A stretch of DNA of 59,040 nt, filler included, from Sphacelaria rigidula (taxonomy: Eukaryota): NCBI GenBank assembly GCA_964200075.2. It is 5 parts of 5 records of this genome, joined end to end, with 100 filler letters (N's around TTAATTAATTAA, not from the genome) between each part and the next. Parts side by side here need not be neighbours in the genome. Positions count along the whole stretch, not along the records: positions 1 to 11,728 come from CAXNAA020004580.1; 4 more parts are not named here. One strand, given 5' to 3'. The stretch's first letter is position 1; each line of letters opens with the position of its first letter. A program made the translations under genes and the position numbers. Shown piece by piece: positions 1 through 57,006 of the stretch. Below the pieces are notes generated by a model. The model was given only the letters and a program-made list of their open reading frames with translations. It was not told the origin of the DNA and did no database searches.

Positions 1-523
1 GGGCATGTCTGGCGGATGGAGCGACTCGAAGCGCTGCACGAAACTAGAAACAGCGAAGTGCATGGTTTAAGGTTCCTTCCTGTCCTTTGGGGACAAAAAA
101 AAAGCATGATAAAAATCAATGCCATGTACGAAGTTTAAATTCAAGCTCTTGTTGACCAGTTCCCACCGCAAACACGCGCAGTGATCGAGTACGATATCCT
201 TGGAATGAGCGTCGTGCGTCTTGGATGAACAGTGATACGTGTGCAGTGTATAACTATCAACTTTTGCTTTTTTCAGATATAAGCGACGTGATGGTGACAC
301 TTTCTTGTCTTGGATAGTGGTGATTCTGGCCTCGTTTGCCAAAAGGGTGACGACATGAGAGTATTCGCTCAGCCTATTTTTGATGTTGATACACACATCT
401 CAGCGTTTTTCACATGTACTTCGTTTGAGGAGATCGCTCTCTGTTAAACTTCAATTATTATAGATCGGAATAGGACTTGCCTAACCGGCAGCACCTTCGT
501 CTATGCCCCTGCCATCGGTTCAG

Positions 524-3500
524 ATCCAGCAGACGGACGTCAACGCCGGAGGCGTCGGAAGCACCATTTCTGTCGTGGCCGCTGGCGTTGACCGCAAAGT
601 CAGCATTGAGTCCTCAGTGTCCGAGTCTTTCGAAGCTGTTTCGTCGATACTGCTGGGTGAGAGCTCCGTCGCAAGACTGGTCTTTTTCCAAAAAATTATT
701 ACTAGGCAGAATCTCCACGCTCAATTTGTCATGTTTTTTGCCTGTTGTTCTCCCCGTCTGCAGCAGTCGTTTTGAGCAGTATGAAGCCCGCGAAGTACCG
801 AATCAGGGAAGTGGTGCTGCCTGTCAGCAGCGTTTCTCTCGCGAACGATATGGGTAACATCTGTCAATGCGTCGCATCCCCATACACTCACTTCACGTCT
901 AGGCCCTCCGATGCCTACAAGATATTTCATGATAGTGACGATTCCTCGAGACATTTGATGACTCACGGTCAACATGCATGGCTTTTGAAATTCAATATCG
1001 TTGACTAGAATTCAAAACCCTGACCGTTGACGTTGTCATCATCCGCGTATTAGAATATCTGCTATAAAGTACGTTGGTCGATGCACTGCGACTGTTAATA
1101 TCCCTTCAGTACTTTATCCGAGGTCAGCTGCTGTTTTGGTAGATATATTCCCCTGAGATGTATTTCGCGGTGGTGACGGCTGATCCAACGCGCGGGCAAG
1201 GGATAACTATGATGTGAAAATAAGATTATCATATCTGACAGTGATAGCCATGTCTCCGCATAGACGTTCAAAAAAGGCGTTGAACTGCAGGTCACAACTC
1301 CGATCCATTACCCCCCATATCTTGGAACCATATCTTGGAAACGAATGACTCTTCATAGGGTGCTTTAGAAATTCTCATCATTGGGTACAGCACAGTACGT
1401 CTTGGAACATCATGTGTATCTCACGGCAGAACATCGACCGTGAGTAGGGCTGCATCTTGCCATACACCTGTAAAACCGAGTAGGCAGCGCGTGCAGCGTA
1501 ATGGCCCATTTCAATCCCATAAATACCGATTTGGTCGAGCTGTTCTATCTTGCCCGGGATATATCGACTGCACCAGCCTTTATCATTTGTCTAGGTCCTC
1601 TGATCCTTAACGGCATCGCCTCCATGTGTCTCCCGCGCCGATAGGCTGAAGGGTTATTTTCATGTGAACGAATACCATATCCACCTCTGTATTTGGCTGC
1701 ACCCATTGTTTCTGTGACAACGGATCAGGTGGATTCATTGTTTCCGAACATTGAAGTAATCATTTGTTTTTCCTGAACAAAGGTAGCGATCGTGCGGGGT
1801 AAAACTGTATATTAGGCCACTAGATATAGAAGCATGGAAAAGCTAATGGGGTTCAGATCGAAACCATTAAGGCAACACTGAACATCTGTGAAAGCATGAT
1901 CATGGCCGTAGAAAGCACAACTTCTGATGAAAGCCGTGTTGCATACTTGTTGTACGTCGCGATCACTCCTGACAACAGAGTCGATGGCGACAATCGACAC
2001 CAGAGGCGACGGCATCCTCAGTGCTGGCGACACCGTCGAATACGCTGTGTTCATCACGAACACGGGAACTACTTGCCTCACGAATGTTGACGTGAAGGCT
2101 TCGGCTCTACAAAGAGTGACGTGCAACGCGAATCACACAGGTTTGTCGACTGCAACACTTGTATCTCTGCTGCTCTGTTTTCGTACCCCTGAGGGTACCG
2201 AGAACGTGACGTGCGGATGTTTTGAGCCTACGATTCATATACCATGAGCATTTTCGCTCGACGCTGGCGTTGTCGAGGCTGGGTTCTTGAGACGTAGAAA
2301 ATGCTGGTAACACCGTTCGGTTACAGCCTGAAATCAGTGTTGCAGAATTGTCAGGTAACCTGCACGTAGTGTCCAAGCGAGAACACGAAGCACTTCCACT
2401 TACCCAGAGTGTTTCGCAAATTGCTGCAGTATGAAGGGCAAGGTGTGCCAGAAGATTCTCCCTTCTCTAGGCGAGTTCTTGTGAATTGTTCATCTCCAAC
2501 GGTTTGGGGGCCAAAACAACGGCTCCTTGAACTACAAAGGATAATCTTCATCACATAATCTTCGTCATATACTTCTTTCGTGCGAACGCTCCAGCCGCCC
2601 GACGACTCTGTAACCTTCACGGCTAAACGGTCGACACGGATTGAGCCGCTTGATCATTTTTTGGGGTTTTATTTTGGTCTGGCGTGCCTTTGACCTGACT
2701 GAACTGATGCTTCGGCTTCTGCACAAAAGAGCCGAAATGGCAATACTCGAGACCTGAAACAATATTCGATTTCAACCACTGCCTATTTGTTTGTTCAATA
2801 CTTGACAATATTGCCTCTCATAAGCGCTGCGTGCCGACGAATATTTGAACAGGTTCGGTAGATCTGGAGGACATGTTCTGTCCGGAAGACAACAATTTCA
2901 TGTGCAAGGGAAACTACACCATCAGCCAGTATGACATGGACAGGGGTTACTATCGAGCGCTATTCTTCGTGACCTCGTCTAGCCCTAGTGGGGCGAATAT
3001 TTCATCCGATCTTGAGTACTCGGTCGATCTGGTTGGGGCGGCCGGCATCGTCGTATGTGAGCAAACCACTGCATGACAGACTCGAAGCAAGGCGAAACAT
3101 CATTACTCACCGTTGTGTTTGTCTAATAGATGCAGAGTTCGAGGCAAAGTGTCCGTGCTGTCTTTTCGTCGGTGGGGACTGCGTTGTCCATCCATCCATC
3201 CATGATACGTTGGAGATGAGCGAAATCCTCTCGCCGCACATTGGGCGCTTGGATTCCTATACAGGCTAACTCAAAGGCTCGTGAAACGGGCAAGACGTAC
3301 CTACGGAAATTGATTATGCTAATAGTGGGGTGGCGATCAGCCTCGTGCTGCATTGATATAATCAGAACTCACATTCACGAATATTCTTCGCGCTTGTTTA
3401 TTTGTTACTTTTTGTCACACATGCCCATCACATCCATAAATGTGACATTAGCACAACGTAAGCTCAGCTTATCTACGCAAACGTGGCACACTGCAGATCA

Positions 3501-6500
3501 ATCTCGTACATCAGCGTTCGAAAAAATCATCTGAATATAAAACGTGGCTCACAGCCCAGCACCATACCAAACGGAGAGCGCCACGGTACCTTTGGGAGAC
3601 GAATCATCGACGCAGCGCGGAAGGGACTATGGGCATCCCTGTGGCAGTAAAATTGTCATTTTGAAGTGGTTCATATGCTGAATCCAGACGATCTCATTCA
3701 TTCACTTGTCGAAAAAAAAAGCCTGCGAACCAAAAAAGAGGTTCATTTCTTCGCAATGCATGGGACAAGCGACGCTGAGTGCGTCATCAACCGCACCGAA
3801 CGACCACCCTGTCGGTACGTAGCCTGATAGTCGACCCTAACCATTGCCGCAGCCCTTAGTCGGACCATAGCCGTAACCCTAACCCTATTCCTAACCCTAA
3901 CTCTGACCTTGCCTCTAACGTTACTGTAGATATACACGGAGACTATGAACCGACAAGCGGCAACGACAACGCAGCTGTGGGTGATATTGTCCGTTACACG
4001 TTTGCCATCAGAAACAATGGCAGCATCACGTTGGACACCATTGACTTGGTCACATATCCAGCGGTGAGTGTAAAATCCAACTGTGGCGTCCACCGACCGG
4101 TCTGAGTTTCGGGGGGCGTATTTATTTGTTGCTTGCCTTAGTCGTTTGACCATTGACCACGCATCCCTTTCGAGTTTGGAAGGGGAGGGGGAAGGATATT
4201 TTTCAATAGAAGTGATGTTTGGTCACGTATTAACTCAATGTGGACCAGTAGGCCCCCACGGCTGGAATTGCTATATATGTCGCGATCGTAGCGTGTATTG
4301 CTGATTGAGATCCCGAGAAGCTCGCATCAATCGCAAACTGCCCAAAATGTGCAGCACACGGGTTCGTTCAATCATACACCAAACCGTATCGGGTTTATCT
4401 AAAACTGCAAGAATATGAATTGCATAGCATAAAGGTCAAAATTACTCAGCTTGATCGCGGTAGTCTTCATAGCTGGTACCTTGGTACATCACTATTAACA
4501 CACGAGCCTCGTGAATTCCTAGAAAATGAGACCCATCCGACGAAAGTCGCGAGGAATTTGGGGCTCTTCGATTACATGTGGCCATCGCATCGCGTGCAAC
4601 CTGCCGTTGCCATCCGGTGTCATTTTCATTTCTCGTCACAGCTGTCGGATCTCATGTGCACACCGGACGTACTCAACGGGGCCAACTTGACGCTTCAGGA
4701 GCACGCAACATGCGCCGGGTACCACACCATTACACAGGAGGATATCGATCGGGGACACGTGAGTAATCGCGTGTACACCTACGCGCAGAACAAACCCGTG
4801 TAATATTTACTACACTCCGATCAGCCGCAAGTTTTACAGCAGTTCTACTTCTGTCAGACGTTATTTTAATTGTGTTACGTGTACCTCTCATCGATTGACT
4901 TGCTCTTGGCACCTACACCCCACGTCTACATGTGTATCCGAAGAGAAACAAGCATATCAGTATGGTAGCATCTACTCGAAACGGAGTCGAGTGTAGCCTC
5001 CCCGGGTTTTCAGGGTTCACGGCTGATCCACCTGGTGTAGTGCAGTGTTGACGGGTACACTGTAGATTTTTCCGTAACCCTTCTCCTTCCGCTCGTACTC
5101 TTGGGATGCAGGCTACGACATCCGCCACCGTGAGTGCCGAAAGCCCCCTCGGCGGTGTATCTGCCCTAAACTCCAGTACTCATCGGCTTACATATCACGC
5201 GAGCGTGGCGATCGGTGAGACTCAGCGCATAGGACTGATGTTGTGGATCTTGCGCCTCGGCGCGTCTTCCGTGCCGGTCGATGTGTATTTCGAGGCGAAA
5301 GGGATGACCTCATTCAGGAAACAGTTGACGAAAAAGGGCATATCAGTGAAGTTGCAGGCGCTGCCACGTCGGTATGTTTCCACTGGGGTATGCTCTTGGC
5401 TAAGTAGTTTGAACACACCACCGATAAGAAATCCTTTTGCGAACATTTTTTTGTTGTTGTGCCGTCGTCGGTGGTTCAGCTGTATACGTTTCGATAATGG
5501 CACCGGGTAGTGCGCTTCCTTCAAGCAATTGAAAATCTACAACTGCGGTGTCATGTGTTCAGAAGACCGTGAAAAGTGTCAAGGTTCCTATCGTCCTATA
5601 CTGCTCATTCCACGTCGTTCGCCGTAGGCAAATACCTGCTCAAGCCGCAATCGCAAAGTGTGATCAAAATACCAAACAACCGAATAACAACCTCATCAAT
5701 TACCCAAGTAACCGTCCAACCCCGACATCAACAACCGACCAGTTGGTTTTTTAATTTTCATTGGATTCATTTCGCTGCTCCCTTCTTCGGCGTGAAATCG
5801 CATGCCCATCTTTGACATCATTCAGAAACTTCCGGCACCTGGCACGATGGCAACCAAGAGGATTCTCTCGCAGCACCACACGAGAAAATTAGCTACATCT
5901 ACAATATCACCAACGCGGGAACAGTCACGCTGAGTAATATAACTGTTCACGACAGCGCTGTAAGCGACGCAGTGTGTTCGAAGCCAACACTGGCACCGGA
6001 GGAAGTTTTCACCTGTGGCGACCACTTTTACCTGGTACGCAACGGAAACCGACACGTTGCGGTATTACAACGATATGTTTGCAGCCAAGCAAGCGGCGAA
6101 GGAAATCCGTGTACATGCGAGACGGCGTCTGAGAACGTACAATATCAAGTTGGCCTGCACTGGCTCATCTGCTCCGGCTTTCATATATGCTCAGTGCTCT
6201 TGGCCTTTCTCCCACAATTCATGGGTGTGTACTGTACATGGAGAAAGTGGAGCTCGGAGTCCCCTCCTTCTTCACGACACCCTAGCGCAAGCAGTACCAC
6301 GTGATGAATCGCGGTCTAGATAGCCGATTCAAAACATTCTCCTACGGCATTGTGTTCTGTGCGGGCTCCTTTTCTAAACCCTGGCAGAGACCTGTCATGA
6401 CCTTTTTCGGGACCAACAATAGATTTTAGAGTGGCGTATCCCGCCCCCTATTTTCCCCTTTCTTCGGTGATCTTTTCGTTTTGCTCAGTCTTTGTTTCTT

Positions 6501-9500
6501 CGTCTATCCGTTCTTTCCGTTTTCACTGCCCTTCTTTCGAGTTTCCAGCAGCGAGTGCATCCGTACAGTTACCTCAGGTTCGCGTATCTCGTGAGCACGG
6601 CTGGATTTGTGACAGATCTGTTATACTCCAATACCTAATTAATCAACCCGCCACGCCAAATCAATCGATCGTGTGGGAAAGGAGGCACGACCTTCCCAGC
6701 CCTCTCACACATGACAATTTTTACTCAATCGTCGTCAATAATGTTGCAGATTAGTCAAGCTGATATCGATACCGGGACGGTGGAAAATGGGGCAACCGTG
6801 ACGGCGATAGATGCCTTGATGGTGCCGGTATCTGCTGACGTTATCGACAAGGTTCCGCTCAAGCGGACATGGAGCGTCATCATTGGTGAGTTAGCATCAT
6901 ATTCTGTTAGGTTAAGTTGATATCTGGGCTTCACACCTGTCCGATGACTTGTTGGCCACACGAGCCTTACCAGCGGCACGATCAACGCGAGGCAATGGAC
7001 TACCCGGAAATGCGGTTCAAGTTTCAAATGGCTCACCGGTCATAAGCAAATTCTCTCGCGGTTAGCCAGCCGTAGCTCACCCACAGCTCGTGATTTTTGC
7101 CCTTTCAACAGCAGCTGTTCGCGTCGCGTGTAACTGCTGTACGCGTCTGAAAGGAGCTAATTGATGCCTCGTTTTCGATGCGTGTGGATGAAGATCACCT
7201 TGCGGAAATCTATACTTTGCACAGCGTAGCAGATGTTGCTAGTTTGTTGATGAGCCCCTCACAAAAAGCGCCGTAAATGACCCTACATACGATTACCCAA
7301 TGCGAAATACGAGATGTCGGAGAATACACAGTACTTTCCTCAGCATGACATATTTCTTCATAGTAGGATTCGAGTAGGTTCCCTTCCTATACATGGTGTC
7401 ATTTTTCGTGTTTCCCCCCGTAGATCACGGGGGGAATAGGATTACATTGTTCGTCCCAAAGCCTACGTAATACGGGGCCCGCTCTACTTTCTTCAGACGG
7501 TGCAGTGGGGCATCATCTGCTGATCGCTTCCTGTGTACTGAGTCGAAAATACACCGAAATCACAAAATGATCTCGTATGCCGCGCGTAGCATGAAACGAT
7601 TTGTGTAGCATTCCAAGCTCAAGTCTTAGGTTTGCTGGGCCGGCCATTTTTACCGTGTCGCATTCCCATGGATCACAGGACCCAATGGAGAGTGTTGTGT
7701 AAGCCCTACACGTGACGAGAACTGCGGGTCGTACCATTTGCGCGCGAAACATGGAAGTGAAGGCAGGCCAAGAAGTCATGCGAAACCGTATTGCTGTTCT
7801 AAACTGCCGATCCGCCCCCGCGCTCTTTTTTTCCGTAGAGAAAAACTCCACGTTCATGGGCGACGCCCTTCGAGCTAGCGTCGGCGATCAAGTACAGTAC
7901 GACTTCGTCGTTGAAAACAACGGCACGACAACTTTGTCGGGAGCGGCTATCTTGGACGACAAAGTAAGTGCAAGTCGCAGCTGCGCGGTACGCTCTCCGC
8001 AGTGCATTTTTATGGTAGATTTGTGTACACATAACGGCATACTTTACCCACAACTCCTGACCCATCCCATCATCTGGGATTCTTGCTGGAGAAACAGTCG
8101 CGCTGGTTGAAAGCGTCAAGTACACATACAGTCAGTTGTCATGCATACTAGCAAATGAGTCATTTGGTAGGCTTGAAGGTGAACTTCCGACAAGTTTTTG
8201 GAGACCGTTGTGTCAACATGCGGGGCAGACTTTATCACAAATCAACGGTTTTCGTGGTTCTTGCACCGTTGGGTTCGCTCCCAACGTCAAACGTGTTTTG
8301 TTTCATTCCCACTTGTTTCGTCAAGTATGCAAACAGACACTCATAAACTTACACTTGGAAAATATTCGTCAACAGCAACACACTCTGGTGTTGTGGATAC
8401 CCGCAAAGGGAGAAATATGATATATTTCTGTGTTGTGGGTATAATGGCATCATCGCTCGGGATCAAAACGGTCGAGTGTGGACGTTCAGGTGCCGGATAA
8501 CGGTCGTCAGAGTGCCCCGAGGAGGAATGACTATCTTAAAATACATCAAGAGTGGGGGGGACTTGATCGTACCAGAGATGAGAATATCAAGTAACAACGT
8601 GAGGGGGTGCTGCGTACTCTGTAGCAATTGACGTATATCTTCCCGCTGAACTTAATCGTGTCCAGCTGCATTCAATGTTTGTCCTTTTCGATCCATAGGT
8701 ATCTACCTCCCCGGATGAACTAAGCTGTAGTGGAACTCTGGAGTCCATACCGCCGCACTCAAGTGTCACCTGCCAAGGGATGAACGCATACGAGATTACA
8801 CAGGTACCACTACTAAGCATCCACGGCTACGGGTAGCGTAGACCTTTCATCATAGTGCACAATCGACGTGTTGTCTCGCCATACCAGGTTCATGAATCGC
8901 TTGAGACATTGCAGAAACTGTCCGACAGTGTCGTGATCACTAGCTACGGTGCGTGAATCTTGCCGGAAAAGATTTCTCGACTTCTGTACCGTAGGATTGC
9001 GGCGTTCATCGCAATGCAATCAAGGTGAAGTACATGGGTAATATAAATATATACCACATCACGAATATTCACGCCACGTAGGCACTCTCGTTCAAACTTG
9101 GGTTCTATTTTGCTATCAAAGTGGCAACGCTTTCAGATGAGCCTCGTCCACACTTTTTAGCTGCTTATTTGCGCTTTTTTTTTACCGCAGTAAAGGTCTT
9201 GTTACCTTTTTAACCCTGGTATTTGTCAACTAGCGTAAGGAAGGCATCCCAACCTCGAAGCGTCCACACTCTATCCTCGTAGCTCCATCTCTCTCTCCCC
9301 AACTTCGTGCGGTTGATTTAGTCAGATATCACTGATATTCAACTTGCCACACGCGACAAAGTTTTAACTTCGCGCGATCGCTACTCTGCTCTCGCGTCGA
9401 CAACAAACTGGCACACCCAAGTGTTTACATATCATAGCTGCCACTGTAAATTGTCAACCTTCTGCGCTCATTGTGATTCCCAAGTCCCACCCCTCAATCG

Positions 9501-10728
9501 AGGCCTTATAACTGGAACTATTTGCGTTTACCTTCTGTATTCGGCTTCCTCAAAGTTCTCCAACGAACTCATGGTCCACATGCTAGTACTTGGCTTTCTC
9601 TACATCATTTTTCGCTTGTTCCTTTTTCCCTCCTTTCCTCTTGGTTTGTCTTTGAGTTGTGTTCCTGGTTTGTTTTTTCTTGGTTCACTTTTTGTTTTGT
9701 TTTGTCCTGTTCTGCTGTGTTGTGTTCTCTGTATTTCCCTCGTTGTAGGGCTCGTTCTTGGATCCCATCATCCTTTGTCCCTTGTAGCGTCGCCTTGCCG
9801 TGGCTTCGCTTGCGTTGCCTTGCTTTACTTTGCCTTGCTGTGCCTTGCCGAGCCTTACCCTGATCTGCCTTGTTCGTTGTGCCGAGCTACGTTTCTCCTT
9901 ATAATGGCTGTTCGGCCTCTTATGACCTGCCCGCCATGTAGCCGACGAATGCTTCATATTTAACTTTGTTCTTTCGAGCTGTACCATTATTGTTGTATAT
10001 TGTTTCATCACTAGCGTATTCGTAAAGTCCCGTCCTTCCGGACACCGTGTTTTCTTGTCCTTGAGCGATGTTGTTTTCCCCATTTTATGCTGTCTTTTCG
10101 TGCCATGGCTATGTGACCATGGACGCTAGATCCCCGGAAAAGGGCTGATGTAAAAGACAACAACAACGCAACATTTGTAACTCCAAAGTTACCAATTCTC
10201 TTCGTGGGCGTCGTAAGTCCTCGTTCATGTTATCACGAAAATGGTAAAGTAAATATCTCGTTGCTTAGTGAAACTATTTTTTATTCCCCCATTTTCTGTT
10301 TTTTCCTGCAACAGGATGACATTGACTCTGGCAGCTCTGTCAGCACGGCCTCCGTCAACGCCGCATCTGCTTCCTTGGATGCCGCAAATGTCACACACTG
10401 GGTATCGTCAGAAGTGCACATCCCCCGAGATCCACGCGTTTCCATACTCGTAGAGAATTCAAGCCGCACAACTGATCGAGGACTCCTTTTGGCCACTGTC
10501 GATGCCAATGATACGCTATCGTTCACCATCACGATATCTAATGACGGCAACACATGGCTCAGCGCAGTTGAGGTGTCCGATACGCTTCTGGAAGGCATTG
10601 ACTGCGCACCGAACATGTCCGGCGTTGATTCTCGGTTCGCCCCCACCGACGAAGACATTGTGTGTACGGCTCGGGTGACGTTGACACAGTCTATGGTTGA
10701 CGCGGGCTTCGTGGAAACCACGATCAAG
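524..10728 (+). CDS. Partial multi-exon gene for a putative secreted/cell-surface protein of tandem DUF11/DUF7507-like ('conserved repeat domain') Ig-fold repeats; exons 524-656, 1979-2140, 2853-3056, 3930-4063, 4642-4758, 5112-5214, 5826-6034, 6750-6885, 7839-7963, 8699-8803, 10315-10728
   Basis: All 11 exons have AG/GT borders and chain with matching phases into one stop-free 1842-nt (614 aa) frame. A repeat motif recurs: GDTVEYAVFITNTGTTCLTNV / GDIVRYTFAIRNNGSITLDTI / HEKISYIYNITNAGTVTLSNI / GDQVQYDFVVENNGTTTLSGA / NDTLSFTITISNDGNTWLSAV. Each is followed by a Cys pair and then YTISQYDMDRG / HTITQEDIDRG / YLISQADIDTG / YEITQDDIDSG / VTLTQSMVDAG. This fits the remembered consensus GdtitYtftVtNtGnvtL...tytvTqaDidaG.v.NtAtv. 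Start and stop are not in this piece. Confidence 0.88.
3835..3920 (+). repeat. Degenerate telomere-like (CCCTAA)n tract in an intron
   Basis: accctaacc...taaccctaaccctattcctaaccctaactctgacc, ending just upstream of the acceptor for exon 3930. Confidence 0.5.
4113..4190 (+). repeat. Short (~70 bp) dispersed element flanked by G-runs; other copies at ~15051-15120, ~47150-47212 (-), ~49562-49628 and ~49641-49708
   Basis: Shared core gcgtac(t/c)tatttgttgcttgccttagtcgtttgaccattgaccacgcatccctttcgagacggag in four of the five pieces. Confidence 0.8.
9540..10167 (+). mobile_element. Probable 5'-truncated non-LTR retrotransposon 3' UTR remnant in an intron
   Basis: T-rich body ending atgtgaccatggacgctagatccccggaaaagggctgatgtaaaaga + (CAA)n tail. 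It resembles the catgagaccacggctggaccc family ends elsewhere in the window. The left edge is approximate. Confidence 0.5.
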
Positions 10729-11120
10729 GTGAGAATAAGAATGAAATATATGAATGACAATGCCATTTACGTAATTGACCGGTGAGAATGCTACGATGTG
10801 GATATTCTGTGGATATTCTATTTTTTCGGTGAAACTCACTGCGCAAATGGTGTACGGAGACGAACGGATGGATGCGGAAAAGCAAGCCACAATGGAGAAG
10901 CAGCATACTAAAAAAAAGTATGAGAAAATATATCCCCATATTAATCCGGCACTTCTGCCCCCCCCGGGCTTATGATAAACGATGTGTTACGTTTTGATGA
11001 AATCGTATCGTATTTACTGCGTCTGAGTGCGTGCATACCTATTTTCTGGCCTTCTCCTGTGCAGTATCGTCAATTGTATATTATATCGCCACTCTGATTT
11101 GGTACAGACTCCACGTCTAT

Positions 11121-11172
11121 CATGTGACCACGACTGGACCCCTGGGGGGTCAGTTAAAGTGCGACATTCAAT
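11121..11172 (+). mobile_element. LINE-type 3'-terminal motif; related copies at ~26110-26226, ~49888-49950, ~53595-53655 and ~56455-56530 (-)
   Basis: catg(t/a)gacc(a/g)cg(a/g)ctggaccc...gggtcagt(t/g)aaagtgcgaca, followed in most copies by an (AATC)n tail. A related end closes the RTE copy at ~39020-39073. Confidence 0.65.
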
Positions 11173-11521
11173 GTATCACATCAAAACACATTTTACCCAC
11201 TCACCCCTGATACCGAGTATCACTTGCCGGGAGGCTAAAGTACATGGAGGAAATACAGAACTGTACTGCAAGAGCACGGGTACCCAGGTGCGATGGCGAC
11301 ACGCCGTATCGCAGGATAGTACAGCGCACCGTTGTCTGTGGCACGTCTGGAACGTGTAGCGACAATGCGACGCATGTCAGTGATCCACGGTCGATACAGA
11401 AAGGGGCGAAACGTTCAGAAAGATATTTGTGGGCGCTTCGTGCTTTGACTGCTCCTAAAGTTCTATTTCGTGTATCATGGTTCGCATAAACTATGACTGG
11501 CAAGCATGCCGAGGGAAATGT

Positions 11522-11529
11522 TTGTTGTC

Positions 11530-11596
<67 letters not shown>

Positions 11597-11622
11597 GATG
11601 TTGCTGTTGTTGTTGATGTTGC

Positions 11623-11695
<73 letters not shown>

Positions 11696-11728
11696 GATGT
11701 TGCTGTTGTTGTTGTTGTGGTTGTTGTT
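11522..11728 (+). repeat. (GTT)n microsatellite at the end of piece 1
   Basis: Long gtt run with occasional gat/gct variants, reaching the linker. Confidence 0.95.
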
Positions 11729-11828
11729 NNNNNNNNNNNNNNNNNNNNNNNNNNNNNNNNNNNNNNNNNNNNTTAATTAATTAANNNNNNNNNNNNNNNN
11801 NNNNNNNNNNNNNNNNNNNNNNNNNNNN
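11729..11828. other. Artificial linker N44-TTAATTAATTAA-N44
   Basis: 100 nt with a six-frame stop cassette in the middle. Confidence 0.97.
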
Positions 11829-12111: not shown

Positions 12112-15100
12112 CGTGTGCACCAGAAGCCGCTGGTGGGTATATCGTGCGAAGGAGTGACAGCCTAAAAAAAGCATCTGACGAGTGCGGCGCACCGTTCGTA
12201 GATCTGCATGAGCTCAAACCGGTGACTGCAGCCACCTTTGCGATCGCTAGAACGAAGCACATCGTGTTTGATGGAAACCAGGCAGTACGTTTGCTTCAAG
12301 GTGGATGGCGAACGGCAAGCGTCCTTCCACACACCTTTACCGGTGATGACGATCCTCCCGGCGAGTCCTGCGCCCCCCGCATCTTCAAAATGTAGGGGAA
12401 CACCGCGCCTTGGGTGAAGAGGTCCACCACATCCAGCTGCATCAAGCTAAAGTGCATCAACTGCAGTGTTTGGTTATACGATGAAAAAATGTATTTGTGT
12501 TTGTGTATACGAGTTTTGCGCGGACGTCGGTGGCACCGGAAAAGGGGGAAATGTTGACGTAGGGTTAGTGTGGGTTTAAGGTGGTGGTGGTGGTGGACGC
12601 TGAAGGTGGGCAAGCGTAGAGCAAAGGTAACTCGCACAGTGGCTGCGAGGTCGGTGAAGGTAAAGGTGTATCTCGGCCATTGCCCATTCTCGGTGATCAT
12701 TCGCACCCTTTGCAGTGCAATCAAACTCACGAGCGAGCTATTCCCTTGCATTTCCAAGTCGGCCGCGGTGTCAACCTTCGCCTCCAGCAGCGGTACATCC
12801 CGACGGCCGTACAGTCTGAATGCTCCGCAGCACCTAGCAGCCGCCCGTATTTGCACGTAGTCCGGCGGTACCTGCTCCGGAAACATTCGCCGTACGTGGG
12901 ACACACGGCATTACGGTCAGTGCAGACGGCGATATCCTACCAATTGCGTGCAAAATTAGAACGGGCAGCGCACGCCACCCAGCCCCCTGTACCCTCTGAG
13001 CCATTTTTGGCTGCTGCTGATTGGTGTTGATGCAGTTGCCAGCCTTCGGCTGCCATGTTTGAGTTTGACACGGCGCTGTGCTGCCCTCCACCGCCGCCCG
13101 TACCCTTCATGCAGCACCCATCACCCAGCCCACCCCCTGCAGCACTGTCCAGCCCCCTTCCATATCACCTGGTCTTGCTCACTATCTGGGTGGTTCCTGG
13201 TCTTTTCTTCCGCATTTTCCCGTGAATGCCCGTTGTAGTCTTTTGTAGTCGACGCACATGGGGTTCATATGTAAAACAAAGCACAAATCGTTTTGGACGA
13301 AAATAGCATGATGGGTGTACAGTCATATCTCGAACGGTCTGAACACCTCCGACAGTCCCCGACCAAACCAAGTGCTCTCCCCGTACGTCTTCGTATCCAT
13401 TGCGCAGTTACAGATGAAGCTTGTGGCTGACAGTACCGAGATCACACCCTACAAGTTCCCCCCCGAAACATCCCTCGACATGTCGATCCAATTTGACCCT
13501 CACGCTGACTGGATTGCTTCGATATCACCCTCACCAACACGCACAACGATCAGAAGAACAACCCACGAAGTCCCTGCCGAAGATGCCCATTGACCTTTCC
13601 ACATACCTCCTTGGGCTTATCCTTCTCCGCGATGAAGGCGCCCAGGTCGTCGATGGATACGTCTCCGTCCTGTTTGGCCTTGTCATCACGGGTCAAATTG
13701 CCCCACCACCCAAACCAACCTTGTTGCTTCTTCTTTTTCTGCTTGTTCTTCTTGTGTTCATTACACGTGTTACCATCTGTGCGTTCTTCGACCTTCGTGT
13801 ATTGGCCGGCTCGTTCCGCTTCGTCGCGGAGGCGCTTTAGCTGTTCGCCAGCGAACCGGCCCCATTGGCATGAACGGCACATGAAAGACACGGCCAGGAA
13901 ATTCAAAAAGGGAACAGATAGACAGGTACAACGAAGCACGAACCAGCGGTGACGGAGAGGAGAGGTAGAGAGGGTTGTGTCCGCCTTCGCGGAGCACATG
14001 ATGAATCAATCCCGATAGAGTACAAGTCTCTGCGCAAACCAATTGGTGCAGAATCTTTCAATACTTTATCGGCCCAGATCTTGGACATGGACAAACTCCT
14101 GAACAACCACCTGCAATTTTTTATTCGAAACTCGAACGCTGACCAAGAGGAATCATATGGTGAGGTATCATCGTTTTGACTGGTGATTGATTGGTGGAGC
14201 CCAGCTTGTGCCCACAAACCTACCTCCCGACCCACCCATGCATCTATCCGCGAATACTACGGCAACAACCGAAATAGCAGAAACCACAACGGCGAACATG
14301 ACTGCGTCAACGCTCACGTTTCTCCTGGCCATGGTCCTGAACATTAGGATAGCCTCCGCCGGCAAGCTCTCTTCCATAGCGTCCAGCTCAGATCGCTCTT
14401 CATCTTCGAGAGGTCGAAGTAGCCCAATGGCCTCGAACGACGGGGGGGAGCTGTGTTCACTCTCCCAGCTGGCTGCAGCTACCCGTTCGAAAAGAGACAC
14501 ATATTTCTTCCTCGCTGCTATAATCTATCCGATCGGGGTACAAGCAGATGGGAAGGGCAGGGGCTAGTTTCCTGATTTGTTTGCGCAAATTGTGAAGAAA
14601 AAAAAAAGAAGCAGTACAGCCAATCAGTACACCAATCACTGCGGTATTATCCGGCCGAACCTTGTTTAATCACTATAAAGAGCCCGCCGTGGTTCACGTA
14701 TTATTACGCAACAACGCCACACCGACAGTCAACTTCAGTGAGTTCGGGCGTCGAACAGCGACGAACAGAACACTGAAGTCTTGCATGAGGCCTTTGCCAT
14801 TTGGAAAATACGTCCGCGCACCTTCACCAGTTTAGAAACGGCCCCCGGTTTTCCTTTCACGCACACGTACGCGTACCTGCACACGGTGTGGGTGCGCGCA
14901 GGGGGGGGGGGGGGGGCGGACCCCCTTTTTGTTTGCTTTATTCGGGGGCACATATACCACCACTCACTTTAGGGCGGGGGGGGGGGTCGCAAACNNNNNN
15001 NNNNCGCGCGCCGGAGGGGGGTGGGGGGGGGCGGGGGGGGGGGGGGGGGGGGCGTACTCACTTTTTGCTTGCCTTAGTCGTGTGACCATTGATCACGCAT

Positions 15101-17655
15101 CCTTTTCGAGACGGAGGGGGGCTAGCAATGCCAAGGTAATATGCATACTCTGGAAGGGCGAAAGTATAAGGTGGAAGTGACCCAACGCGCGGAAATGAGT
15201 GTGTGGTGGTGTCCTACAACGGAATAGCGGAACAGCTCTCTCGCAACCTGTCAAAGCTAGTGCGAATCCCTACAATGTGCAAAGTTCATCGCGAATGCGA
15301 CTAAAAGAGAGGGCGAGGTTAAGATACCTTGAGTTTGAAACATGATCCAACCTTGTTCGCAAGCGCCGTGGACACAGCAACGCACACATGGCGTAATGTT
15401 GATAACAGCAGCCGACAGAGCGAAAAAAACGACCACTCTTGGCTGTTCGTGAGAGTGAAAAACCAGACGGCGATAGCACCGCTGCCGCTTGTACGACCCC
15501 GCATGGTGCAAATCTCTGAAATAATGTTTCAAGCCGGTTCTTGTGCACCTCCACCAAGCCCTAGGGTCCTGCAATGGGCTGGCCTTCGGACGATACGGAA
15601 AGAATATCTGCCAGTTGGCCAGGGCGACGAAATTGTCCTTGAGCTGCAGAATCTGTTCGTACTGCTCCGCTCGCAAGTCGACCCGGATATCGTCCACCTG
15701 CATTTCGATATGCAACGGCGTTCACACGCACGAAGTGCCCCAAGTTACCGTTTATAGTTCTTGATATTCATCGCCATCAAGTTTGAATGAATGTTTCAAG
15801 ATAATTAACCAGCATTCATCCCTGTAATCGCTTCCCCCCTTCCCCCCCGTACACACCCCAGCACATCGACGAACTTTTCCTCCGGTTGACCAAGGGACCC
15901 CATGTGATGAAATTCTCCACCCTTCGCTTGCGCAAAAACAAAACAAGTTCGAAACTAGATCAAATCAAATCAACCGTACCTCAAGTGAAGCCTCGAACTC
16001 TGGCCCTATCGTATCAGCGGGGTCGTCGTTATGGGTGAGCTTCAGCACAGCACTCATGGGCCTGATCACATCCCCGCGCGCCAGTCCGCCCCAATTTTCC
16101 CCTTCCGGGTCCACCGCCTGGTCGTCTACGAATTCGTTCAGTCCGTAAAACCTGAGCTCTGGGGGTAACAACGCATACCTGGACATCGAGGAAATAGGTG
16201 AACGAGGAAGGCCACGGTGGGGGTGTCGGGGAGGGTGGAAGAAGTAAGAAGGGAGGGAGAAAGGAATGAGAAGAAATGGGCAAGGAAGGGATGCGACTGA
16301 GAGGAATGAAGCTCAACATACGAGCTGCATATGCGGCATACGACAAATCCCCCCAACGCGGGGAGCGAGGCTAGCACGTAGACCGCACAGCGATATCCGT
16401 GACCAAAACATCACCAATCACGGCCGTGACAGAAGCCGTCACGTAGGGGGTGGGCAGGATGCGTACTATTTTTAGTATACTCGATGTAGCCATACAGGGG
16501 GTTGCAATCTTTTGCACGGATACTGGCATTTCCGCCTTTGACTACTCGAAGCAGTATAGGCTGCTTCCACCTGAAAAGCACAGCTTTCCTTCAAAATAAA
16601 AATTTCCCAGGTTAGCGTTCGATTATTATCATTATCATTATTGTTATCATTATTATTGTTATTACAGCACATTAGTCCAATCTCTCGAACCCGTGGTCAC
16701 CGAGGTAGGCTCGTCTTTTCAACATCGTCCCTGCTATTCCTTACAGTACATCGAATTCCCATAATCTTTTCCGAGATCCCAGACTAAAAACAAAACAAAA
16801 ACAACCAATATACATATATATATATATATATATATATTACCAAATAAAAATGAAAAGAGAGACGCCCAGAAAACAGGTGAGAAATATTTTCCCCGGATTC
16901 ATCGGGGTGAAGAAAATAAGCGAACCCTTCAGAGCTGCCAACAAGCATACCGGAAGAAAAGGGACAGACAAGGAAAGACAGATGACAAAAGGATGTTAGC
17001 ACGGTCACCAAGCGGGGGTCAACTCTACAGCCCCAGGCACCCTATATACAAGTACCACAGCTGTTCGGGAAGACGGCAGATGCACCAGCGAATGTACTAC
17101 GCGACGGGCTACAGGTTATTTTTCGAGGGTTCTAGGTAGGCACTGGGGGAACTCTAGTGGTGGCACAGCGAGCGTTTCCTCAGCATGGCGTGCTTTGGTC
17201 CAGACTCGATTATCAACCGAATTTCCACAGTCCTGCCCAACCAGGTGACAGACATTTTCTCTTTGGAACATCTATTGAATCGGGGTCTCTTCTTTCAAGG
17301 CATTCGGATTTCAGTGAAACCGAGCCTCCTTGAGTCGATCTTAATTTCGAATAACGTGAGACTCATCATTTCAATCAATCACGAGTTTCACATCGAAACT
17401 ATCCAAATAGAGTGTTCTATCGATTACAAATTTCTGGCGAGCCTCTTCTATTCCACGACTCAACATGGAGGTCAAAAGTTAGGCAATAACTCGAACACTA
17501 CCTCACCAGTCAGAGCAAAAAATAAACGCTGATTGGCGATGAACCACAAACGATTCGACTCCTCGCTCAGAGCAGCTCCGAATTTTTCGTTCTCATCATC
17601 ACAATTTGAATATGGCGTGATTTCACCATGTGCGCAGATTTTTAAAGTGAGGCAA

Positions 17656-17730
<75 letters not shown>

Positions 17731-23556: not shown

Positions 23557-23656
23557 NNNNNNNNNNNNNNNNNNNNNNNNNNNNNNNNNNNNNNNNNNNN
23601 TTAATTAATTAANNNNNNNNNNNNNNNNNNNNNNNNNNNNNNNNNNNNNNNNNNNN
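23557..23656. other. Artificial linker N44-TTAATTAATTAA-N44
   Basis: Identical 100-nt spacer. Confidence 0.97.
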
Positions 23657-46160: not shown

Positions 46161-47212
46161 GACGCAGGCAAAGTTCGAGAGAAACAGCTTCTTCCATGAA
46201 TTTTCGTGACGGGAAACTCACGTCAATCTTTCGTTACGGGAAACTCACCGGGATTCTGACACCGATTAATTCATTTAGCGCGCAGAATTACCGTGGGCAT
46301 CCTCGCTTGTAACTTTGAGTTTGGGAATTCGATTCCGCCAAACTGGTTTCGCAGGGTGGGGCCTTGTCGTCACGTCTTATCCCGTCGCATCTCCCGACGG
46401 TACTGAGCGTGTGGGTGATTTCTCGATTTTGATTCTTGTGAGGTAAAAAATCGCAGACAACCCTCGTAGTTTCTTCTTGAGTCTTGTTTGTGCATATACT
46501 GTAGCCCATGCGGAGGGGTGGCTAAATGACAACATGCGTCGCCGAGGATATTTGCGTGCCAGTCGCGTGTGCTAGTCGTATTGGCCCGTTTGATTGTTTC
46601 CATGGAGATATGGTTGATGGTAAAAGGAGGGGGGGGGGGGGGGGGAACAGCACGGGGAAATAATATTTGAAAAAAACGAGATCATCGTGACGCTTCAGTA
46701 CCACTTCCTGGAGTACTGTATACTTATTGGGATTGCGCCCGTGTGTATTTCCGCCCCAAGGCCTGCTTTTACTGGCCACTGCGAGAGGCTAATTGATGCG
46801 TAGCTGTTTGCCTTCGAGAGCTTGCGATAAACCTGAAGTTCTGCATTTCGGTCGCCTCGTGAAATTGAAAAACCGTGCAGGGCATGCCAGGCAATATGGG
46901 GAGAAGGAGGAGGGGGGTGGTTCATCGTTGTGGATGACGCCCTTACTATAACACGGCCGGACACGTCGACGCACTCCCCCATGAGGCCCCGATTTTTCAG
47001 CAACCACATCATCGGCCTTTTCAAGTTCACGAGCCCAACCCTTGCCCGCATTTAACGAACGAGCGAAATGGTTCATTTTTTTTCAGTGAAGTCCTCTCAC
47101 ACCACCGAAAATCTATAGCCTAAGCGTGCCAGCGGAGTTGACCCCCTCCCACCCCCCCTGCTCCGTCTCGAAAGGGATGCGTGGTCAATGGTCAAACGAC
47201 TAAGGCAAGCAA

Positions 47213-47312
47213 NNNNNNNNNNNNNNNNNNNNNNNNNNNNNNNNNNNNNNNNNNNNTTAATTAATTAANNNNNNNNNNNNNNNNNNNNNNNNNNNNNNNN
47301 NNNNNNNNNNNN
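47213..47312. other. Artificial linker N44-TTAATTAATTAA-N44
   Basis: Identical 100-nt spacer. Confidence 0.97.
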
Positions 47313-56284: not shown

Positions 56285-57006
56285 GAATGCAGTCGTACAG
56301 TATATGCGGTAAAAAAAAGCTATCGCGGGAACTGCGGAAATCTCAAGCCACGGTACTGCACCCTGTCGCGGAAAATCGCGGTAGATGGCATTTTGTCCTG
56401 TACACGTGTGTTCATGTACGCGTATAATTTTTCAATCAACGAACGTACGAGTGCTTTGATTGATTGATTGATTGTCGCACTTTAGCTGACCCCTCAGGGG
56501 TCCAGCCATGGTCTCATGATAGACGTACCCAAGAAAAACGAAATTCGAACACGCTCTAAGGGAAAAAAAAAAGAGGGGTCGAACAGAACGACATGGCAGA
56601 TTACGTGGTGTAAAAAAAAAGTGATAAAAATTCAACACAAGCAAAGCACAGAAAGAAATCGCCGACCTAAAGCAAGAAAAAGAAAAACAAGAGGAAAGTA
56701 CGAAGCAAACAAAAAATATACAATAAAACGATGGGAAAAAAAAGAAAAGAAAAGAATACTGCGACTCCGAATGTCATTGTTCAAATACAGGAAGGGACTC
56801 GAATGCAGTTGTGCTGTATACGCGGTGAAAAAAAGCTATCTCGGAAACTGCGGCAATCTCAAGCCACGGTACCGTACCCTGGCGCGGAAAATCGCGGTAG
56901 ATGGCATTCTGTCGTGTGCACGTGTGTTCATGTACGCGTTTACATTTTTCAACCAACGAACGTACGAGTACTGCGACTCTGAATGCCATTGTTCAGATAC
57001 AGGAAG
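56285..57006 (+). repeat. Tandem duplication (~210-bp unit x2) whose first copy is split by a LINE 3' fragment (~56453-56756, - strand)
   Basis: 56285-56452 plus 56757-56799 align to 56800-57006. The insert begins with (GATT)n and the reverse-complement LINE terminal motif. Confidence 0.75.

What the first reader, a model, noticed from the sequence alone, without database searches (positions are those of the whole stretch)
656..7839. Phase-1 introns sit at four consecutive repeat boundaries (exon-shuffling signature)
Seen: introns 657-1978, 3057-3929, 5215-5825 and 6886-7838 are all phase 1 and fall at the equivalent position, just after the short hydrophobic strand (SILL|E, GIVV|Y, SVAI|E, SVII|E). 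Introns inside repeats vary in position and are mostly phase 0, and the last boundary (RVSILVE, exon 10315-10728) has no intron. Established: symmetric 1-1 modules typify shuffled extracellular domains in animals, and exon shuffling has been proposed for brown algal LRR-ROCO and NB-ARC-TPR genes. Inference: the repeat was converted into a 1-1 module that can be duplicated, or skipped in frame to vary protein length.
Basis: partly seen in the sequence, partly recalled or inferred. Interest (0 to 1): 0.7.

Follow-up and report, generated by a model that had tools for sequence, protein, structure and literature searches.

The report
Same-phase introns bound adhesin-like repeats
A eukaryotic gene built from tandem copies of a bacterial-type surface-protein domain has an intron at the same spot and reading-frame phase at four repeat borders in a row, most simply because an intron-bearing repeat was copied in tandem long ago, not because of ongoing exon shuffling.

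Summary
A + strand gene (exons 524-10728, cut off at both ends of an 11,728-base piece) reads open for 614 codons across 11 exons with GT-AG introns. It encodes at least five DUF7507 (CLIPPER_2) repeats. Introns 657-1978, 3057-3929, 5215-5825 and 6886-7838 are all phase 1 and all split the codon after the first hydrophobic strand, which is position 6 of a profile built from 3,461 bacterial repeats. The fifth border (codon 10453-10455) has no intron.

No RNA evidence was available, so every junction is predicted.

New points:
- Two internal intron positions also recur: 48|49 and 75|76, both phase 0.
- The Lys-Asp-Asn isopeptide triad, present in 2,467 of 2,756 bacterial repeats, is complete in 0 of 5 repeats here.
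- The repeats are only 22-34% identical, and each unit spans 2-3 exons.
- Two homologous fragments at about 81-85% identity keep one border intron and the intron-less border.

Same-phase borders follow automatically from tandem copying of an intron-bearing unit. "Exon shuffling" is therefore only partly supported. Mobility between genes, module skipping and copy-number variation remain untested.

The parts
524..656 (+). Exon: C-terminal part of repeat R0 (IQQTDVN...SSILL). Its predicted acceptor at 524 is phase 0, profile position 75|76. It ends in phase 1.
   Evidence: weak profile match 518-592, E 1.3. The acceptor is the least certain junction.
657..1978 (+). Border intron 1 (R0/R1), phase 1, GTGAGA...CAG, 1322 nt
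   Evidence: splits the codon of profile position 6
1979..2140 (+). Exon, N-terminal half of R1 (1-1 exon, 162 nt)
   Evidence: DUF7507 E 4.8e-06; profile 3-61, E 6.3e-11
2141..2852 (+). Internal intron of R1, phase 1, in the codon of profile position 60, GTTTGT...CAG
2853..3056 (+). Exon, C-terminal half of R1 (1-1 exon, 204 nt), ends ...GIVV
3057..3929 (+). Border intron 2 (R1/R2), phase 1, splits a TAT (Tyr) codon, GTGAGC...TAG, 873 nt. It holds a degenerate CCCTAA-like run near its 3' end.
3930..4063 (+). Exon, start of R2
4064..4641 (+). Internal intron of R2, phase 0, profile 48|49 (same site as 7964-8698). It holds a 64-base dispersed repeat at 4111-4174.
4642..4758 (+). Exon, middle of R2 (0-0, 117 nt)
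4759..5111 (+). Internal intron of R2, phase 0, profile 85|86
5112..5214 (+). Exon, end of R2 (...HASVAI)
   Evidence: profile alignment runs on through the 4758/5112 junction
5215..5825 (+). Border intron 3 (R2/R3), phase 1, GTGAGA...CAG, 611 nt
5826..6034 (+). Exon, N-terminal two thirds of R3
   Evidence: E 1.5e-08; E 1.6e-11
6035..6749 (+). Internal intron of R3, phase 0, profile 75|76
6750..6885 (+). Exon, C-terminal third of R3 (...TWSVII)
6886..7838 (+). Border intron 4 (R3/R4), phase 1, GTGAGT...TAG, 953 nt
   Evidence: The related fragment P0152 also has non-repeat sequence and an AG at the same spot upstream of KNSTF.
7839..7963 (+). Exon, start of R4
   Evidence: It is 34 of 42 residues identical to P0152 (counted by eye).
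7964..8698 (+). Internal intron of R4, phase 0, profile 48|49
8699..8803 (+). Exon, middle of R4 (0-0, 105 nt)
8804..10314 (+). Internal intron of R4, phase 0, profile 78|79, 1511 nt
10315..10728 (+). Largest exon (138 codons): end of R4, the intron-less R4/R5 border (E codon 10453-10455) and most of R5. A GTGAGA donor follows at 10729.
   Evidence: DUF7507 E 5.8e-11, 42.8 bits, cut-off 27; P0151, 85% identical, has the same uninterrupted border and donor

Best explanation
This is a real, intron-rich eukaryotic gene for a tandem array of DUF7507 (CLIPPER_2) Ig-like domains, a family otherwise typical of bacterial and archaeal surface adhesin stalks. An ancestral repeat unit carried a phase-1 intron in codon 6, at the end of its first beta-strand. 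It probably also carried phase-0 introns at profile positions 48|49 and 75|76. Tandem duplication of that genomic block copied the border intron, so every copy has it at the same site and phase. The copies then diverged to 22-34% identity, lost or gained internal introns differentially, and lost the isopeptide Lys-Asp-Asn triad. The R4/R5 border either lost its intron or R5 is an older unit.

Shown: the anatomy, the family, the shared intron sites and the missing triad. Inferred: the order of events. The likely product, also inferred, is a secreted or cell-surface glycoprotein stalk held by one Cys pair per domain rather than by isopeptide bonds. Same-phase borders make in-frame gain or loss of units possible, but nothing shows that this is happening now.
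For: Gene model:
- 11 exons read open for 614 codons, and all introns are GT-AG.
- With an intron stop frequency of 0.038 per codon, the chance of 614 open codons is about 4e-11.
- GC at third codon positions is 0.62, against 0.47 for intron GC.
- 7 of the 12 GTGAG on the + strand of the piece are the predicted donors.
- The spliced product gives five matches of E 1e-18 to 1e-22 to a profile made only from bacterial repeats. Profile positions are consecutive across all 5 phase-0 internal junctions.
- All 10 six-frame profile hits with E<1 are model exons.

Family: 8 of 8 exon translations tested hit Pfam DUF7507 at E 5.8e-11 to 0.082. Three score above the 27-bit cut-off and one sits exactly at it.

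Shared intron sites:
- The border site is used in 4 of 5 borders, 48|49 in R2 and R4, and 75|76 in R3 and R0.
- The exon side of the border junctions is TGG|A, TAT|A, TCG|A, TTG|A. None has the full MAG|R proto-splice motif.

Related fragments:
- P0152 (about 81% identical in the exon) has intron-like sequence and an AG at the same place before KNSTF.
- P0151 (85% identical) keeps the intron-less border and the donor after TTIK.

Tree: in a FastTree, R1-R4, the four repeats with an intron at their N-terminal border, group together, while R5 sits with bacterial repeats. Support is weak.
Against: - No RNA evidence for any junction.
- Many other in-frame GT/AG pairs are formally possible.
- The four border introns share no detectable similarity, so common descent of the introns themselves is not shown.
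- Each window repeat is closer to some bacterial repeat (36-44%) than to its neighbours (22-34%). That would also fit an array that was already diverged when it entered the lineage.
- The R1-R4 grouping has support of only 0.42. An IQ-TREE run was unresolved, with 3 of 77 branches starred, and the AU test did not finish.
- The gene is cut at both ends of the piece and the genome is not held, so other copies could not be examined.
Confidence: 0.6

Rival explanations
1. Parallel modularisation. An already diverged multi-repeat array, for example one acquired from a bacterium, received introns independently at the homologous codon of four repeats. This corresponds to the 'modularization hypothesis' for class 1-1 modules.
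For: - Repeats are more like bacterial repeats (36-44%) than like each other (22-34%).
- The border introns share no similarity.
- 3 of 4 border junctions have G at -1 and 4 of 4 have A at +1.
- Patthy 2021 argues that intron insertion at domain borders is biased to phase 1 (PMC8001218, passages).
Against: - Four independent hits on one of about 345 sites per repeat is very unlikely without a strong target motif, and 0 of 4 junctions have the full MAG|R motif.
- Two further intron sites are also shared between repeats, which duplication explains with one mechanism.
- No repeated mobile-element sequence lies in the border introns.
Confidence: 0.15
2. Active module use. The 1-1 units are currently duplicated, lost or skipped in frame to vary protein length.
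For: Unit lengths are multiples of three (366, 354, 345 nt) and 4 of 6 possible unit skips stay open. Exons 1979-2140, 2853-3056, 4642-4758, 8699-8803 and 10315-10728 are each phase-symmetric on their own.
Against: - Skips from donor 3056 give TAA or TAG, including the example proposed.
- Each unit needs 2-3 exons to be skipped together.
- Repeats are old and diverged.
- No spare repeat exons lie in introns or on the other strand.
- Two related fragments show the same exon ends.
Confidence: 0.1
3. The model is wrong in part, or the locus is a decaying, unexpressed copy, so that phases and positions are artefacts of choosing GT/AG pairs that keep a frame.
For: There is no RNA evidence. 46, 9, 44 and 26 in-frame GT/AG pairs exist at the four borders. 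The first exon's acceptor and everything upstream of 524 are uncertain.
Against: - 614 open codons across 10 junctions.
- Profile coordinates are continuous at the junctions.
- GTGAG sits exactly where homology ends at 7 donors.
- Third-position GC is enriched.
- A homologue conserves exons at 81-85%, against 50% in the intron stretch upstream of 7839.
Confidence: 0.1

Closest known systems
[quoted passage not shown]
   Same: Same sequence family. Both are tandem arrays of about 110-residue Ig-like units. The NxG motif and the two Cys positions are conserved. The best library hits are uninterrupted arrays in proteins of up to 6,414 residues.
   Different: Here the array is split by at least 10 GT-AG introns in eukaryote-like DNA. 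The Lys7-Asp46-Asn88 triad is complete in 0 of 5 repeats, against 2,467 of 2,756 bacterial repeats. The preprint judged eukaryotic hits to be likely false positives or contamination. The introns argue against contamination here.
Class 1-1 modules of metazoan extracellular proteins (Patthy; PMC8001218, passages read)
   Same: An all-beta, extracellular-type domain is flanked on both sides by phase-1 introns, so units are 3n and phase-symmetric.
   Different: Mobility between genes is not shown; only one tandem array was seen. The intron lies in the first strand, 5-6 residues into the domain, and not in a linker. Units are 2-3 exons. The split codon is Glu or Tyr, not the Gly expected from the proto-splice argument. 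The organism is not shown to be an animal.
Exon shuffling of LRR and TPR exons in Ectocarpus ROCO and NB-ARC-TPR genes (PMC3341825, passages and part of the supplements read; PMC11378527, listing only)
   Same: Repeat units are delimited by introns and have lengths divisible by three.
   Different: In Ectocarpus, one repeat equals one exon of identical length, there are extra intact or non-coding repeat exons in introns and on the other strand, and duplicates are recent. Here units are multi-exon, of unequal length and 22-34% identical, with no stray exons. Whether this window is from a brown alga was not established.
Phatr3_J48356, annotated 'DUF11 domain-containing' in the diatom Phaeodactylum tricornutum (PMC12113381, one table row seen)
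   Same: A DUF11-type domain annotated in a nuclear gene of a eukaryotic alga.
   Different: Only the name was seen. No sequence, intron map or relation to this gene was checked.

Membership tests
DUF7507 / CLIPPER_2 (PF24346) | Match to the Pfam profile at or above the gathering score (27 bits) | tested here: met
   exon 10315-10728 scores 42.8 bits, 5826-6034 scores 35.0, 7839-7963 scores 28.4 and 1979-2140 scores 27.0. The other four exon pieces score 13-25 bits; five repeats of the spliced product match a bacterial-repeat profile at E 1e-18 to 1e-22.
DUF7507 / CLIPPER_2 (PF24346) | Intramolecular isopeptide triad (Lys in the first strand, catalytic Asp, Asn in the penultimate strand) | tested here: not met
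   K7/D46/N88 are present together in 2,467 of 2,756 bacterial repeats and in 0 of 5 window repeats. R3 has D and N but Thr at the Lys position (Thr read from the sequence; it lies outside the profile's local match). R4 has K and D but Ser at position 88. Assigning these three profile positions to the triad is my inference from the CLIPPER structure described in the preprint. The preprint also says some family members lack the bond.
DUF7507 / CLIPPER_2 (PF24346) | Ig-like (CnaA-like) beta-sandwich fold | not tested
A PDB sequence search gave no hit below E 0.3.
DUF7507 / CLIPPER_2 (PF24346) | Tandem repeats in a secreted or cell-surface protein with a signal peptide and adhesive or sorting domains | tested here: inconclusive
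   Tandem arrangement is met, with at least 5 repeats. Both gene ends lie outside the 11,728-base piece. There are 14 N-x-S/T sequons, against 6.9 +/- 2.2 in shuffles, which is only a hint of secretion.
Class 1-1 exon-shuffling module | Introns of the same phase at both ends of the domain | tested here: met
   phase 1 at four consecutive borders (predicted junctions).
Class 1-1 exon-shuffling module | Intron positions coincide with domain borders | tested here: inconclusive
   The intron splits profile position 6, one residue before the first-strand Lys position. It lies within a few residues of the border but inside the first strand.
Class 1-1 exon-shuffling module | The same module occurs in different genes or domain contexts, flanked by the same-phase introns (mobility) | not testable with these tools
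   No genome is held for the window. No other DUF7507 piece lies in the other four pieces. The only DNA relative fetched is a prokaryote-type continuous ORF.
Brown-algal dynamic repeat-exon shuffling (Ectocarpus LRR/TPR type) | One repeat per exon, successive exons of identical length divisible by three | tested here: not met
   2-3 exons per repeat; unit lengths are 366, 354 and 345 nt.
Brown-algal dynamic repeat-exon shuffling (Ectocarpus LRR/TPR type) | Extra intact or decayed repeat exons in introns or on the non-coding strand; recent, similar copies | tested here: not met
   all 10 profile hits with E<1 are model exons, and no minus-strand hit in the gene's piece scores better than E 12; repeats are 22-34% identical.

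The most novel reading that the evidence does not exclude
An independent, non-animal case of 'class 1-1 modularisation'. A bacterial-type extracellular Ig-like domain (CLIPPER_2) was taken up by a eukaryote, possibly a multicellular alga, and acquired a phase-1 intron at its border. It then expanded as an intron-bounded module after losing the isopeptide bond that clamps its first strand. If the same codon-6 intron flanks DUF7507 units in other genes of this lineage, exon shuffling of 1-1 beta-modules would not be restricted to Metazoa.
Probability: 0.2. Interest if true: 0.65.

Novelty: new member of a known kind. Interest (0 to 1): 0.35.

Why it matters
Two things give it modest value.

First, it is a clear intron-bearing, and therefore genuinely eukaryotic, member of the DUF7507/CLIPPER_2 family. 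A 2025 survey treated that family's eukaryotic hits as probable contamination. In this member the isopeptide triad is gone.

Second, it is a clean example, not shown to come from an animal, of a beta-sandwich surface domain bounded by phase-1 introns. This is the pattern that Patthy links to metazoan exon shuffling. With a whole genome and cDNA, one could test whether this is just old tandem duplication or a mobile module.

As it stands, the pattern is what tandem duplication of an intron-bearing repeat always produces, so it is not surprising to a specialist.

Tried and rejected
RNA evidence:
- No RNA holder was listed for 900-10890.
- After laying four runs, X4 behaves like low-coverage DNA: short contigs over introns and exons alike, at depth 2-5.
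- X5-X7, labelled RNA only by a guess, hold only three dispersed-repeat stretches (1-103, 4111-4174, 10753-11500) and give no splice joint.

Own genome and cluster data:
- The window's own genome is not held.

Protein and DNA searches:
- The word-based search for longer relatives found none.
- The full library search gave 2,276 hits at E<=0.001. The 150 listed are almost all giant multi-repeat proteins, and the four I read include three uninterrupted arrays. Eukaryotic relatives could not be picked out.
- The metagenome scan gave 1 locus, with a continuous 1,716-codon ORF, so it is of no use for introns.
- The PDB sequence search gave nothing below E 0.3.
- Atlas neighbours are all bacterial DUF7507 clusters.

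Checks on the locus:
- Blastn of all introns against the window found no similarity among border introns, so an introner or transposon origin is unsupported.
- The candidate upstream exon at 298-444 has a Cys pattern like the repeat but no profile or Pfam support, so it was dropped.
- 24 other ORFs in introns, on the opposite strand and in the other pieces have no credible Pfam family (one marginal sub-threshold hit, RIO1, E 0.056).
- Rfam and tRNA scans gave 0 hits.

Tree: IQ-TREE on 80 rows was unresolved, and the AU test of an R1-R4 clade did not finish in two 300-s runs. It was abandoned.

Other:
- Four look-ups of earlier findings returned nothing relevant.
- Literature: the whole-word search for DUF11/DUF7507/'CLIPPER domain' found 50 papers, of which 30 were listed. 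Only one listed title concerns a eukaryote, a diatom table row. A second search with algal terms listed nothing with DUF11.
- In Zambounis supplementary table 2, the word-start search for DUF11 hit only a DUF1126 row. Two of the supplement files were not searchable.
- Structure prediction was not attempted, because a full repeat exists only as a spliced sequence.

Full report
**Setting**

The 59,040-base window is not one stretch. It is five pieces of 11,728 bases joined by 100-base spacers (N44-TTAATTAATTAA-N44), the first at 11729-11828. The finding lies in piece 1 (1-11728), so its context ends there. No whole genome is held for the window.

All four named introns begin with GTGAG and end with YAG exactly at the stated coordinates. 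I built an 11-exon model: 524-656, 1979-2140, 2853-3056, 3930-4063, 4642-4758, 5112-5214, 5826-6034, 6750-6885, 7839-7963, 8699-8803 and 10315-10728. It reads open for 614 codons with canonical GT-AG at every junction. In it, the four named introns are all phase 1.

A self-alignment of the repeats puts all four introns in one column. Each splits the Glu/Tyr codon that follows the short hydrophobic strand (SILL|E, GIVV|Y, SVAI|E, SVII|E). The fifth border (SILV-E, codon 10453-10455) lies inside exon 10315-10728.

For a register independent of the window, I built a profile from 3,461 repeats of 149 library proteins.
- The spliced product matches it five times at E 1e-18 to 1e-22.
- Introns 657-1978 and 6886-7838 fall in the codon of profile position 6.
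- The other two border introns lie just outside the local alignments, because the following loop varies in length.

**How good are the junctions?**

No RNA evidence could be had (see Tried and rejected). The sequence evidence is consistent:
- Profile coordinates are consecutive across all five phase-0 internal junctions: 48|49, 85|86, 75|76, 48|49 and 78|79.
- All 10 six-frame profile hits with E<1 are model exons.
- 7 of the 12 GTGAG on the + strand of the piece are the predicted donors.
- Third-position GC is 0.62, against 0.47 for intron GC.
- The chance of 614 open codons at the intron stop frequency is about 4e-11.

Frame alone is not unique. There are 46, 9, 44 and 26 in-frame GT/AG pairs at the four borders. 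The claim therefore rests on consensus plus homology, not on frame.

Two homologous protein fragments from other assemblies help.
- P0151 is 85% identical. It covers the intron-less R4/R5 border without interruption and reads through the same donor after TTIK.
- P0152 matches exon 7839-7963 at 34 of 42 residues. Upstream of KNSTF it has unrelated-looking sequence (14 of 28 identical) with an AG at the same codon position (counts by eye).

These fragments may come from a close relative or from a recent paralogue. I cannot tell which.

**Corrections and additions to the observation**

The internal introns are indeed mostly phase 0 (phases 1,0,0,0,0,0 for the six complete ones), but they do not all differ in position. 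Position 48|49 is shared by R2 (4064-4641) and R4 (7964-8698). Position 75|76 is shared by R3 (6035-6749) and the predicted acceptor of R0 at 524.

Each unit between border introns holds 2-3 exons and is 366, 354 or 345 nt long.

**What the gene is**

All eight exon translations tested hit Pfam DUF7507 (PF24346), the best at 42.8 bits against a cut-off of 27.

A 2025 preprint renames DUF11 and DUF7507 as CLIPPER and CLIPPER_2. [quoted passage not shown] It regards eukaryotic hits as likely false positives or contamination (passages).

The full library search gave 2,276 hits. The listed ones are giant multi-repeat proteins of up to 6,414 residues, and three that I read are uninterrupted arrays. 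Atlas neighbours with recorded taxa are all bacterial.

In my bacterial repeat set, K7, D46 and N88 are present in 97%, 93% and 97% of repeats, and together in 2,467 of 2,756. In the window, 0 of 5 repeats have all three, while the Cys pair at positions 54 and 70 is kept in 5 of 5. The product has 14 N-x-S/T sequons against 6.9 +/- 2.2 in shuffles.

I infer a secreted or surface glycoprotein stalk that no longer uses isopeptide bonds. This is inference. The gene's ends, and so any signal peptide or anchor, lie outside the piece.

The many GT-AG introns argue against bacterial contamination. A diatom gene annotated 'DUF11 domain-containing' exists in one table I saw.

**Where the intron sits in the fold**

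Position 6 is one residue before the conserved first-strand Lys. The exon-defined unit is therefore shifted by one strand relative to the structural domain. It consists of the rest of domain i plus strand A of domain i+1. Because every unit is cut the same way, adding or removing a unit would still rebuild whole domains with a swapped first strand. No fold was predicted here.

**How it arose**

Any tandem duplication of a block that holds one repeat and one border intron yields borders of identical position and phase. The four introns therefore count as one event copied, and 1-1 rather than 0-0 or 2-2 carries little weight.

Points for duplication after intron gain:
- Three different intron sites are shared between repeats.
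- None of the border junctions has the full MAG|R proto-splice motif. The exon sides read TGG|A, TAT|A, TCG|A and TTG|A.
- In a FastTree of 5 window and 220 bacterial repeats, R1-R4 group together (support 0.42, inside a clade of 8 with 0.93), while R5 sits with bacterial repeats at 0.85-0.87. R5 is the one repeat without an intron at its N-terminal border.

Points against, or neutral:
- That grouping is weak.
- IQ-TREE on 80 rows resolved almost nothing (3 of 77 branches starred), and the AU test did not finish.
- Each repeat is nearer to some bacterial repeat (36-44%) than to its neighbours (22-34%).
- The border introns share no similarity with each other or with anything else in the window.

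I put old tandem duplication at 0.6, parallel gain at 0.15, current functional skipping or shuffling at 0.1, and a flawed model or dead copy at 0.1.

**The skipping idea**

Joining border donors to later border acceptors gives GAT, GAA, GAG and GAG for four skips. Phase symmetry alone does not make every skip viable.

No spare repeat exons lie in introns or on the other strand. Such spare exons are one of the hallmarks reported for Ectocarpus LRR/TPR shuffling, where one repeat is one exon of constant length (PMC3341825, passages). The searchable part of that paper's supplementary table 2 lists no DUF11 locus.

**Comparison and verdict**

The pattern resembles Patthy's class 1-1 modules: a beta-rich extracellular domain with phase-1 introns on both sides (PMC8001218, passages). 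That paper asks why exon shuffling appears restricted to Metazoa. The defining feature of a shuffled module is the same unit in different genes, and that could not be tested.

I file the finding as a new, intron-bearing eukaryotic member of a known domain family, with a known kind of repeat-gene architecture. Interest is moderate to low unless a genome-wide map shows the module in other genes.

Noticed in passing
window 11729-11828, 23557-23656, 35385-35484, 47213-47312: The window is five 11,728-base pieces joined by N44-TTAATTAATTAA-N44 spacers, so pieces 2-5 need not be neighbours of the gene. A separate N10 run lies at 14995-15004.
   Followed up: yes
window 4111-4174 (inside intron 4064-4641); copies at 15047-15110, 49558-49622, 49638-49696, 47167-47212: A 64-base dispersed element at 85-100% identity between copies. 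Summed contig depth is enormous in all four runs laid (70,000-126,000), often with G-runs on its flanks and contigs ending at it. It may be a very high-copy short repeat (MITE/SINE-like). There is no Rfam or tRNA match.
   Followed up: partly
window 11113-11189 (downstream of donor 10729); copies at 56451-56526 (-), 53587-53652, 49880-49956: A second dispersed element of about 77 bases at 80-87% identity. The 10753-11500 stretch also has high depth in all runs.
   Followed up: no
window 1-103: The start of piece 1 matches many high-depth contigs in all four runs, with several variant letters. This is another repeated element at the edge of the piece.
   Followed up: no
window 11522-11728 and 17659-17729: A (TTG)69 microsatellite ends piece 1, and a perfect (TG)35 lies in piece 2.
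   Followed up: no
window about 3860-3905, in border intron 3057-3929: A degenerate telomere-like CCCTAA/AACCCT run lies just upstream of the acceptor (read).
   Followed up: no
window 298-444 (+): A 49-codon open frame has a ...C...FFTC... pattern that resembles the middle of a repeat. It has no profile hit and no Pfam hit. It may be a decayed exon of R0 or chance.
   Followed up: partly
L001 3650-8797 (+): A metagenome contig holds a continuous ORF of at least 1,716 codons with one clear DUF7507-like unit (5648-5956, E 1.6e-08). It is prokaryote-type and has no introns.
   Followed up: partly
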